Source of the DNA: a virus
Reading direction: 5' to 3' (one strand)
Length of the DNA stretch: 64,000 nt
Virus genome (UHGV): UHGV-0164982
Shown here in pieces: positions 8,033 to 8,745 of the stretch. The position numbers and the translations under genes were made by a program. The first letter of the stretch is position 1. Every line of letters starts with the position of its first letter. The notes under the pieces were generated by a model that saw only the letters and a list, made by a program, of their open reading frames with translations, made no database searches and was not told the DNA's origin.

Positions 8033-8202
8033 ATAGTATTAGTGTAAGCTTAATTAGCTATTTTTAAGGCACATAATTTGTTTATTCTATAGACGGATTT
8101 GTGCCTGATTTTATAATTAAATATTTCTCGCATGCTGTAATAAGTGAGAGTGTTAAATGGTAATACTGGTTGTCTTTAGCAAAAGCTTAAAAGGAAATAT
8201 AA

Positions 8203-8637
8203 ATGAACTCTTCGTCAAAACAGGCGATCATAATTCATGATGTATTATGCCATTATTGTAAAACTCACTATGATAGTGATGTCATGGTATTAACTATTGA
8301 ACAGGATGTTAATTCTGGGTGGAATCTTCGTGGTAAAGGAGAAATCCATACTAAATGTTCATGTCCTGTCTGCGGAATGATGTATACTGCAGTAAAGAGA
8401 ATGATACCTATTGAGTGTGATAGCTATTTATGTCCAACGTGTAATGAATCATCAAACCTTGAATATAACGTATACAAGATCGAACGAGTTCAAGATAGTA
8501 ATGATTTTACATTTAAAGCTAATATAATATGTAAGAAATGTCACAATAAAAAAACATTGACTAAAGTCATCAAAAAAATCCTAAATATAAAGAGAATTGA
8601 AATTAAACTTACAGGGATTACTATTGAGAGATATTAG
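8203..8637 (+). CDS. cysteine-rich zinc-ribbon-like protein (AT-rich moron)
   Basis: 144 aa with four CxxC-type pairs (CHYC, CPVC, CPTC, CKKC); very AT-rich coding and upstream region; own terminator downstream. Confidence 0.55.
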   Translation: MNSSSKQAIIIHDVLCHYCKTHYDSDVMVLTIEQDVNSGWNLRGKGEIHTKCSCPVCGMMYTAVKRMIPIECDSYLCPTCNESSNLEYNVYKIERVQDSNDFTFKANIICKKCHNKKTLTKVIKKILNIKRIEIKLTGITIERY

Positions 8638-8714
8638 TGAATAATTTTGATAGGTATTTTATAGCTGGATTGTAATTTATAGCTGAATGTGATGAACATC
8701 GAATACAAGCAGGT

Positions 8715-8745
8715 AAAAATCCCGCCAATCGGCGGGATTTTTTTA
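8715..8745. terminator. bidirectional intrinsic terminator
   Basis: AAAAATCCCGCC-AATC-GGCGGGATTTTTTT hairpin flanked by A and T runs between convergent genes. Confidence 0.7.

What the first reader, a model, noticed from the sequence alone, without database searches (positions are those of the whole stretch)
8033..8745. AT-rich island encoding a four-CxxC zinc-ribbon protein
A 144-aa protein with four Cys pairs sits in a very low-GC block with its own AT-rich promoter region and a strong bidirectional terminator. It is inserted between the dar operon and the ssb operon. Small zinc-ribbon morons are frequent regulators or anti-defence factors.
Basis: seen in the sequence. Interest (0 to 1): 0.45.

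Follow-up and report, generated by a model that had tools for sequence, protein, structure and literature searches.

The report
Rare zinc-finger moron in P1-like plasmid
A 684-bp AT-rich insertion in a known variable spot of a P1-like phage-plasmid carries one real gene for a 144-residue double zinc-finger protein; its uncharacterised family is sometimes fused to TIR immune domains and often sits among defence genes, so it is probably a phage/plasmid-conflict gene, but no function has been shown.

Summary
Window 8033-8716 has about 30% GC against 47% for the window. It encodes a 144-aa protein (8203-8637, +) with four CxxC pairs.

It is an insertion between the stop codon of hxr, the last gene of the darA/ddrB operon, and a backbone terminator that phage SJ46 carries at the empty site. 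So the "strong bidirectional terminator" belongs to the backbone, not to the island. The hxr|isaA gap holds different cargo in P1, RCS47, Ro157c2YLVW and MH422554.

The island is rare. It occurs in 8 of 483 hxr-positive plasmids and in none of 50,697 phage records. In 6 of those 8 the match stops near island position 390; one checked copy is cut by IS10.

The gene is real: dN/dS is 0.06-0.23, and an exhaustive search finds about 209 clusters at 50% identity with (near-)invariant cysteines. No Pfam, NCBIfam, PHROG or PADLOC model claims it.

Eight of the 75 scanned relatives carry an N-terminal TIR domain; single relatives carry EAD11, LRR or HTH. Neighbours include a Dsr1-like SIR2, a HEPN-AbiU2 cassette, a CHAT-STAND protein and a PemK-like protein.

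Best reading: a self-contained moron carrying a stand-alone conflict-system module, more likely defence than anti-defence. The function is untested.

The parts
8033..8716 (.). Inserted AT-rich island (about 684 bp) between the hxr stop codon and the backbone terminator
   Evidence: Alignment with the empty site of phage SJ46. Megablast of the flanks matches P1-like phages on both sides but never the island. GC 0.30 against 0.47 for the window.
8067..8105 (+). Hairpin followed by UGAUUUUAU at the 5' edge of the island. It is terminator-like and may insulate the gene from dar-operon read-through.
   Evidence: RNA fold -18.7 kcal/mol, z = -5.8, 0 of 200 shuffles fold as well. The function is inferred.
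8090..8117 (+). Sigma-70 promoter-like site TAGACG-16 nt-TATAAT
   Evidence: 10 of 12 consensus matches. Not above chance in this AT-rich region, so this is only a candidate.
8191..8195 (+). Shine-Dalgarno-like AAGGA, 7 nt before the ATG
   Evidence: Read from the sequence.
8203..8637 (+). Gene for the 144-aa protein: two CxxC-hairpin-CxxC-helix units plus a C-terminal beta-hairpin
   Evidence: ORF. Homologues and invariant cysteines. dN/dS 0.06-0.23. AlphaFold model pLDDT 84.4. Internal duplication, hhalign 95%.
8409..8417 (.). TATTGAGTG: the 9-bp target duplicated where IS10 (ISVsa5) interrupts the gene in a sister plasmid
   Evidence: NZ_CP080059 is 100% identical on both sides of the IS, and window 8409-8417 is present on both sides. 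Six of 8 plasmid records lose the match near this point.
8654..8688 (+). Two tandem 17-nt direct repeats (GTATTTTATAGCTGGAT / GTAATTTATAGCTGAAT) downstream of the stop codon; role unknown
   Evidence: Two-copy short repeats may be chance.
8715..8742 (.). Bidirectional intrinsic terminator of the P1-like backbone, shared by the hxr-side and isaA-side transcripts
   Evidence: Perfect 12-bp arms. -22.5 kcal/mol, z = -5.6. Present at the empty site in SJ46.
7724..8032 (+). hxr, the left flank and last gene of the darA/ddrA/ddrB operon
   Evidence: P1 and SJ46 annotation. phrog_2292, E = 1e-56.
8743..9531 (-). isaA, the right flank
   Evidence: 98% identical to residues 60-320 of P1 IsaA. phrog_2326.

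Best explanation
Window 8033-8716 is a horizontally acquired, self-contained moron. It is inserted in the hxr|isaA hot spot of a P1-like phage-plasmid, upstream of the backbone terminator.

Its single gene encodes a 144-aa protein built from two homologous zinc-binding units, each CxxC / beta-hairpin / CxxC at the start of a helix. The units pack into one alpha/beta domain with a conserved basic helix and a C-terminal beta-hairpin.

The protein is a free-standing copy of an uncharacterised module. The same module also occurs as the C-terminal domain of single-gene TIR proteins and of EAD11, LRR and HTH fusions.

I infer that it is a conflict-system (immunity or exclusion) module. The lysogen would express it from its own promoter, and it would bind a nucleic-acid or phosphate-rich ligand through the basic helix. 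The net role would be to protect the plasmid-bearing cell against other phages or mobile elements.

Shown: the insertion, its rarity, a real gene under purifying selection, the family, the fusions, the contexts and the predicted fold. Inferred: zinc binding, the ligand, expression, and the direction of the effect (defence rather than anti-defence).
For: Insertion and hot spot:
- The empty site in SJ46 carries the same terminator.
- Other cargo occupies the same gap in P1 (isaB + IS1), Ro157c2YLVW (95-aa ORF), MH422554 (364-aa ORF) and RCS47 (IS transposase).

Cassette layout: hairpin plus U-tract, promoter-like site, Shine-Dalgarno, ORF.

Real gene: dN/dS is 0.06-0.23 against homologues of 55-64% identity.

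Family: the exhaustive profile search gives 209 clusters, 129 of them with E < 1e-10. C19, C54, C57, C77, C80 and C110 are invariant; C16 and C113 are above 90%.

Fold:
- pLDDT 84.4.
- The two halves are homologous (hhalign 95%, E = 3.9e-8).
- K/R occupy 47-68% of sequences at positions 112, 115, 116, 120, 121, 124 and 131, with almost no acidic residues there.

Conflict-system links:
- N-terminal TIR_2 in 8 of 75 scanned members; EAD11, LRR and XRE-HTH in one each.
- EADs are described as adaptors that couple effector or signalling domains to conflict systems (PMC7159879).
- Neighbours: Dsr1-like SIR2 (PADLOC E = 8e-33), a HEPN_AbiU2 cassette in the Vibrio parahaemolyticus superintegron, a CHAT-STAND protein, a PemK-like toxin beside a prophage integrase, and TIR-WD40 plus IS21 elements around a TIR fusion.

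Against a typical phage anti-defence gene: no homologue in 50,697 phage records (tblastn) or in IMG/VR.
Against: - No experiment, and no hit to any PADLOC defence model.
- The defence-neighbourhood evidence is anecdotal: about a dozen loci, with no background control.
- No conserved partner gene was found.
- On this plasmid the gene sits among anti-defence genes, not defence genes: the Dar anti-restriction operon lies upstream and a Tad2-like gene is two genes downstream.
- In 6 of 8 plasmid records the match stops near island position 390. In one record, checked base by base, an IS10 interrupts the gene. The gene is therefore dispensable and may be neutral.
- The promoter-like site is not above chance.
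- The eS24 similarity is moderate and may only reflect a common alpha/beta topology.
- Model coordinates could not be inspected, so the zinc-site geometry is unverified.
Confidence: 0.42

Rival explanations
1. Anti-defence factor. The free-standing domain would act as a decoy or dominant-negative partner of host immune proteins that carry the same C-terminal module (for example the TIR fusions), or would mask the molecule they sense. It would extend the anti-defence block formed by the Dar proteins and the Tad2-like gene.
For: - Location: directly after the darA/ddrA/ddrB/hxr operon, co-directional with it, and two genes from a Tad2-like gene (PF11195, E = 2.5e-22).
- It is a small single-domain protein.
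- It shares a domain with TIR proteins.
Against: - The family is absent from all 50,697 phage genomes and from IMG/VR, which is unlike known anti-defence families.
- Most members sit in bacterial chromosomes, integron cassettes or defence-like islands.
- A hairpin plus U-tract separates the gene from the dar operon.
- It is rare even among P1-like elements (8 of 483) and mostly truncated there.
Confidence: 0.25
2. Small zinc-finger regulator. It would bind DNA or RNA to modulate expression of plasmid or host genes (lysogenic conversion), with no role in immunity.
For: - Conserved basic helix and pI 8.8.
- Fold nearest to RNA-binding ribosomal proteins eS24, L23 and L15e.
- One relative is fused to an XRE-type HTH domain.
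Against: - No recognisable DNA-binding family matches above threshold.
- The TIR, EAD11 and LRR fusions and the defence-type neighbourhoods are not explained by a plain regulator.
- No conserved target locus travels with the gene, because DNA homology ends at the ORF borders.
Confidence: 0.15
3. Toxin-antitoxin component, for example an unusual antitoxin for a PemK/MazF-like toxin, left orphaned on this plasmid.
For: In Providencia rettgeri prophages the homologue lies 150 nt upstream of a 144-aa PemK-like gene (Pfam 26.5 bits, cut-off 23.1).
Against: The pairing appears in one lineage only. There is no PemK-like gene in the window island or in the other ten or so contexts. At 144 aa with a Cys8 fold, the protein is unlike known MazE/PemI antitoxins.
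Confidence: 0.05
4. Functionally neutral hitch-hiker. The gene is intact but has no selected role on this plasmid and is on its way to being lost.
For: In 6 of the 8 plasmids that carry the island the match stops near island position 390. In one of them, checked base by base, an IS10 with a 9-bp target duplication interrupts the gene. Only 2 of 479 hxr-positive E. coli genomes hold an intact copy.
Against: Strong purifying selection across the family. A complete expression-signal layout. The truncations end at nearly the same point, so they probably descend from one event rather than repeated loss.
Confidence: 0.1

Closest known systems
Phage morons and variable cargo at the P1 hxr|isaA site (in P1 itself: isaB + IS1)
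   Same: Same insertion site between hxr and isaA. A self-contained single-gene unit of deviant base composition. Patchy distribution.
   Different: The cargo gene is unrelated to isaB, IS1 or the other cargos. It is absent from every phage record.
Treble-clef / zinc-ribbon small proteins (Pfam DUF7836, HVO_2753-type small zinc-finger proteins, Zn_ribbon_8)
   Same: CPxCG-type knuckles. Weak profile similarity over residues 52-85 (DUF7836, E = 3.2e-4, 20.9 bits).
   Different: Below the Pfam gathering score (26.7 bits). Here four knuckles form two homologous units within a roughly 130-residue alpha/beta domain that has a C-terminal helix and hairpin.
Ribosomal protein eS24 (S24e/L23/L15e-core fold)
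   Different: 3-14% sequence identity. The sequence search of solved structures found no significant relative, eS24 included. The similarity may be topological only.
Single-protein TIR immune proteins with a variable C-terminal domain (ThsB-like and other TIR-X architectures)
   Same: Eight of 75 scanned relatives are TIR_2 + this domain (two also match ThsB_TIR). The two examined are stand-alone genes; one lies between IS21 elements beside a TIR-WD40 gene.
   Different: The window protein has no TIR domain. It is the C-terminal module alone, as are most of the family.
Tad2 (anti-Thoeris sponge), encoded two genes away
   Same: Small accessory phage or plasmid protein in the same neighbourhood. 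It concerns TIR signalling.
   Different: The window protein has no Tad2-like (PF11195) Pfam match. There is no evidence that it binds signalling nucleotides.

Membership tests
Core P1 (Punavirus) gene set | Present at this position in P1 and most P1-like elements | tested here: not met
   Absent from P1, P7, SJ46, RCS47 and D6 and from all 50,697 phage records. Present in 8 of 483 hxr-positive plasmids and 6 of 479 hxr-positive E. coli genomes.
Moron (self-contained accessory transcription unit in a phage genome) | Inserted between conserved genes, with deviant composition | tested here: met
   Empty-site comparison. GC 0.30 against 0.47.
Moron (self-contained accessory transcription unit in a phage genome) | Own promoter and terminator; expressed from the prophage | tested here: inconclusive
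   A promoter-like site exists but is not above chance. There is an upstream hairpin plus U-tract. The downstream terminator belongs to the backbone. Expression cannot be tested here.
Pfam DUF7836 | Score at or above the gathering threshold (26.7 bits) | tested here: not met
   20.9 bits, E = 3.2e-4, covering only residues 52-85.
Zinc-binding Cys4 finger (treble-clef or zinc-ribbon type) | Four conserved Cys ligands per site, arranged as two knuckles around a beta-hairpin | tested here: met
   The eight Cys are invariant or above 90% across 74 sequences. The spacing is conserved. The secondary-structure order is knuckle, hairpin, knuckle, helix, twice.
Zinc-binding Cys4 finger (treble-clef or zinc-ribbon type) | Actual metal binding and tetrahedral site geometry | not testable with these tools
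This needs ICP-MS or a crystal structure.
Known anti-phage defence families (PADLOC-DB 2.0) | Significant match to a defence-protein model | tested here: not met
   Only chance-level hits: Cas7_IIId E = 0.0027 and Cas10 E = 0.0045.
Known phage protein families (PHROGs), which include the described anti-defence proteins | Significant match | tested here: not met
   Best hits are phrog_16329 (E = 0.0022) and phrog_2834 (E = 0.0067), both of unknown function and both partial.
Type II toxin-antitoxin pair with a PemK/MazF toxin | Conserved adjacent toxin gene | tested here: not met
   A PemK-like neighbour occurs only in the Providencia lineage. There is none in the window or in the other loci.
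eS24 / S24e ribosomal protein family | Sequence homology to S24e | tested here: not met
   No Pfam or PDB sequence match. The similarity is in fold only.

The most novel reading that the evidence does not exclude
The roughly 130-residue double-Cys4 domain is a previously undescribed immune module: the sensing or target-binding domain of a class of single-protein TIR defence systems. Its free-standing form would be either a new minimal anti-phage or exclusion system carried by prophages, integron cassettes and phage-plasmids, or a phage-plasmid-borne decoy that disarms the TIR fusion proteins.
Probability: 0.2. Interest if true: 0.7.

Novelty: new variant of a known kind. Interest (0 to 1): 0.42.

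Why it matters
If the family is an immune module, it adds a domain to the bacterial TIR and conflict-system repertoire. It would also give an easy test case, because natural isogenic P1-like plasmids exist with the gene intact (NZ_CP116245) and disrupted by IS10 (NZ_CP080059).

It also marks the hxr|isaA gap of P1-like phage-plasmids as a cargo hot spot. That gap lies next to the Dar and Tad2-like anti-defence genes, so it is useful for mining further accessory genes.

If the gene turns out to be neutral, the result is just a well-delimited moron of unknown function.

Tried and rejected
- AlphaFold on the 5-sequence alignment gave pLDDT 49 and was discarded. Only the 74-sequence alignment gave a usable model.
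- The word-indexed protein search found only 4 clusters with the single protein and 8 with the profile. The exhaustive search was needed to see the family.
- The search for related loci could not use alignment A4. With alignment A1 it found no relatives in the GTDB species genomes or in IMG/VR.
- The afdb50 fold library was unavailable. BFVD gave no match with E <= 0.001. The PDB sequence search gave only generic zinc-finger noise.
- NCBIfam gave no hit; PHROG and PADLOC gave nothing significant.
- Rfam gave only sub-threshold hits driven by the terminator hairpin.
- A literature search for the RefSeq protein accession found nothing. The eLife paper on effector-associated domains does not describe this domain.
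- No flanking direct or inverted repeats suggest a transposon or an attC site at the island borders.
- DNA homology to the closest relatives stops at the ORF borders, so no donor element could be identified.
- The idea that the terminator belongs to the island was rejected.
- The idea that C52 and C72 are metal ligands was rejected as a family feature: they are conserved in 10 and 42 of 74 sequences respectively.

Full report
**1. What is in the sequence**

The ORF at 8203-8637 (+) starts with ATG, 7 nt after an AAGGA. It encodes 144 residues with CxxC pairs at 16/19, 54/57, 77/80 and 110/113, plus C52 and C72.

GC in 200-nt windows falls from about 0.45-0.53 to 0.23-0.36 between 8000 and 8700 and then recovers. 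The island is 30.4% GC; the window is 47.2%.

A perfect 12-bp inverted repeat with a 4-nt loop lies at 8715-8742, preceded by an A-run and followed by a T-run. It folds at -22.5 kcal/mol, z = -5.6. It is a textbook bidirectional terminator, although the consensus scan missed it.

**2. Borders and the nature of the site**

The left flank is ddrB (4747-7734) and hxr (7724-8032). The right flank, on the minus strand, is isaA (8743-9531), a 281-aa Tad2-like/DUF2829 ORF (9538-10383; PF11195, E = 2.5e-22) and ssb.

Megablast of 7700-9600 against 50,697 phage records matches P1-like phages on both flanks. It never matches 8033-8742. A sensitive blastn of the island finds nothing.

In phage SJ46 hxr and isaA are 29 bp apart. 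Those 29 bp contain the same terminator hairpin. So the insertion lies between the hxr stop codon and the backbone terminator, at about 8033-8716. The terminator is not part of the island.

The same gap holds other cargo elsewhere:
- isaB plus IS1 in P1;
- a 95-aa ORF in Ro157c2YLVW;
- a 364-aa ORF in MH422554;
- an IS transposase in RCS47.

A study of phage-plasmids reports that antibiotic-resistance genes sit in a few hot spots, and SSB heads its list of gene families next to the P1-type hot spots (bioRxiv 10.1101/2022.06.24.497495).

At its 5' edge the island has a hairpin (8067-8105; -18.7 kcal/mol, z = -5.8) followed by UGAUUUUAU. A promoter-like TAGACG-16 nt-TATAAT overlaps and follows it (8090-8117). 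The layout is thus hairpin, promoter-like site, Shine-Dalgarno, ORF, as in a self-contained moron. The promoter call is not statistically supported (4 sites found, 5.0 expected).

**3. Distribution**

- The island occurs in 8 of 72,556 plasmid records, all P1-like Escherichia plasmids. 483 plasmids carry hxr.
- In complete E. coli genomes, 6 of the 479 hxr-positive genomes have it. The window is 100% identical to a plasmid of chicken strain GPEC79-13-647.
- Only 2 plasmid records and 2 genomes hold the gene intact.
- In the other 6 plasmid records the match stops at island position 388-391. In NZ_CP080059 an IS10-family element (ISVsa5) sits there with a 9-bp target duplication (window 8409-8417). 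The sequence is otherwise 100% identical. In related plasmids ISVsa5 is followed by a cueO gene.

The gene is therefore accessory and dispensable for the plasmid.

**4. The protein family**

The indexed search of 5.8 billion proteins found four clusters, at 98, 64, 61 and 55% identity. An exhaustive HMM search of 1.84 billion cluster representatives found 209 proteins with E <= 1e-3 and 129 with E <= 1e-10. Most are 140-165 aa.

In a 74-sequence alignment C19, C54, C57, C77, C80 and C110 are invariant. C16, C113, G44, P69, P78, F104 and G138 are above 90%. W40 is above 90% in the 75-sequence alignment. The spacing between knuckles 2, 3 and 4 is almost fixed.

dN/dS against the three closest homologues is 0.06-0.11, and 0.18-0.23 among those three, with synonymous sites near saturation. 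This is a real protein under purifying selection.

No curated family claims it:
- Pfam gives only a sub-threshold DUF7836 match (20.9 bits, cut-off 26.7) over residues 52-85.
- PHROG and PADLOC give only chance-level or sub-threshold hits, and NCBIfam gives none.
- RefSeq calls it a hypothetical protein.

**5. Predicted structure**

With the 74-sequence alignment AlphaFold2 gives pLDDT 84.4 and pTM 0.68. The order of elements is:
- knuckle 1 (16-19);
- hairpin 25-48;
- knuckle 2 (54-57) at the start of helix 59-71;
- knuckle 3 (77-80);
- hairpin 86-110;
- knuckle 4 (110-113) at the start of helix 111-127;
- hairpin 129-143.

The two halves are homologous (hhalign 95%, E = 3.9e-8). Because the ends of a hairpin lie next to each other, I infer that knuckles 1+2 and 3+4 each form one Cys4 site. 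The arrangement resembles a treble clef. This is inference, because the coordinates could not be inspected.

Helix 2 carries a basic patch conserved across the family. K/R occupy 47-68% of sequences at seven positions, with almost no acidic residues there. The pI is 8.8 for the window protein and 8.4 at the family median. This fits binding of a nucleic acid or phosphate-rich ligand but does not prove it.

**6. Fusions and genomic contexts**

Of 75 members scanned with Pfam, 8 carry an N-terminal TIR_2 domain, and 2 of these also match ThsB_TIR. Single members carry EAD11, LRR repeats, an XRE-type HTH or an L7/L12-C-like domain. Effector-associated domains are described as adaptors that couple effector or signalling domains to conflict systems (PMC7159879).

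The two TIR fusions whose loci were examined are single genes without a conserved partner. One is flanked by IS21 elements and lies near a TIR-WD40 gene and an integrase.

Stand-alone members lie:
- directly upstream of a Dsr1-like SIR2 gene (Pfam SIR2_2, E = 1.3e-17; PADLOC Dsr1, E = 7.8e-33);
- between a prophage integrase and a PemK-like gene in Providencia rettgeri;
- in an island with CbeA and DUF4942 genes;
- next to IS3 and a weakly trypsin-like protein;
- next to a Mob_CxxC_CxxC gene;
- near a CHAT-STAND protein;
- on a contig with TrfA/ParA-type replication and partition genes plus phage tail genes, which looks like a phage-plasmid;
- in an array of short co-directional genes in Vibrio parahaemolyticus that I read as the superintegron. 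A 68-aa zinc-ribbon ORF lies 7 nt upstream, and in one strain the adjacent cassette encodes HEPN_AbiU2.

In its closest relatives the gene is more AT-rich than its surroundings, and DNA homology ends at the ORF borders. No homologue exists in the phage collection (tblastn) or in IMG/VR.

**7. Interpretation**

The solid part: this is a rare, horizontally acquired, self-contained moron in a cargo hot spot of a P1-like phage-plasmid. It encodes a free-standing copy of an uncharacterised double-Cys4 domain.

The inferred part is the function. The TIR, EAD11 and LRR fusions, the defence-type neighbours, the carriage by prophage cargo regions, integron cassettes and phage-plasmids, the patchy distribution and the loss by IS insertion are the usual signature of conflict-system genes. 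The absence from phage genomes argues against a typical phage anti-defence protein. I therefore favour a defence or exclusion role exerted in the lysogen, through binding of a nucleic-acid-like ligand (confidence about 0.4).

The main rival (about 0.25) is an anti-defence decoy of TIR fusion proteins. The position next to the Dar operon and the Tad2-like gene favours it. A plain regulator, an orphan toxin-antitoxin component and a neutral hitch-hiker remain possible.

**8. Novelty and caveats**

Neither the gene nor its family appears in the literature searched or in the curated libraries. It is a new variant within known kinds: morons and zinc-finger conflict-system domains.

Caveats:
- The neighbourhood evidence rests on about a dozen loci with no background control.
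- Zinc binding, expression and any phenotype are untested.
- The similarity to eS24 is moderate.

Noticed in passing
window 9538-10383 (-); L012 3501-4463: The ORF between isaA and ssb has a C-terminal Tad2-like (anti-Thoeris, DUF2829) domain (PF11195, E = 2.5e-22). Reference P1 lacks this gene. Its 320-aa 'IsaA' is a fusion: the first ~58 residues are 85% identical over 65 aa to the start of this ORF, and the rest is the IsaA body (98% identity).
   Followed up: partly
window 8409-8417; L024 (NZ_CP080059) 1085-2413: In a sister plasmid an IS10-family element (ISVsa5) interrupts the zinc-finger gene with a 9-bp target duplication (TATTGAGTG). In other sisters the ISVsa5 is followed by a cueO gene, and one also carries an IS1. 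These are natural knock-outs that could serve as isogenic controls.
   Followed up: partly
window 8067-8105: A strong hairpin (-18.7 kcal/mol, z = -5.8) followed by a U-rich tract, directly after the hxr stop codon and overlapping the promoter-like site. It may terminate dar-operon transcription now that the backbone terminator has been displaced about 680 bp downstream.
   Followed up: partly
window 8654-8688: Two tandem 17-nt direct repeats (GTATTTTATAGCTGGAT / GTAATTTATAGCTGAAT) between the stop codon and the backbone terminator. No explanation; this may be chance.
   Followed up: no
window 8715-8742: The consensus terminator scan reported no terminator in 7600-9000, although a perfect 12-bp hairpin with a T-run is there. 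Presumably its stem extension swallowed the T-run. Negative results of that scan should not be trusted.
   Followed up: yes
L021/L022/L023 about 7788-8453 (Vibrio parahaemolyticus): The Vibrio family member sits in an array of short co-directional genes, apparently the superintegron. A 68-aa ORF with its own CPxxC...CGxC zinc-ribbon motif ends 7 nt before it, suggesting a two-gene cassette. In one strain the next cassette encodes HEPN_AbiU2.
   Followed up: no
L017 888-13533: A metagenomic contig encodes TrfA- and ParA-type replication and partition genes next to baseplate and tail genes, so it looks like a phage-plasmid. It carries a 193-aa family member between the two modules. This would be a second, unrelated phage-plasmid-type carrier.
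   Followed up: no
L011 1865-2959 (MH422554), L010 2049-2336, L012 1900-2505: Other cargo genes at the same hxr|isaA hot spot have no Pfam or PADLOC match: a 364-aa ORF annotated 'terminase large subunit', a 95-aa ORF, and P1 isaB. The terminase annotation looks unfounded.
   Followed up: partly
L008 997-1611: The 61%-identical homologue lies 110 nt upstream of a truncated Dsr1-like SIR2 gene (PADLOC E = 7.8e-33) on a 1.6-kb metagenomic contig.
   Followed up: partly
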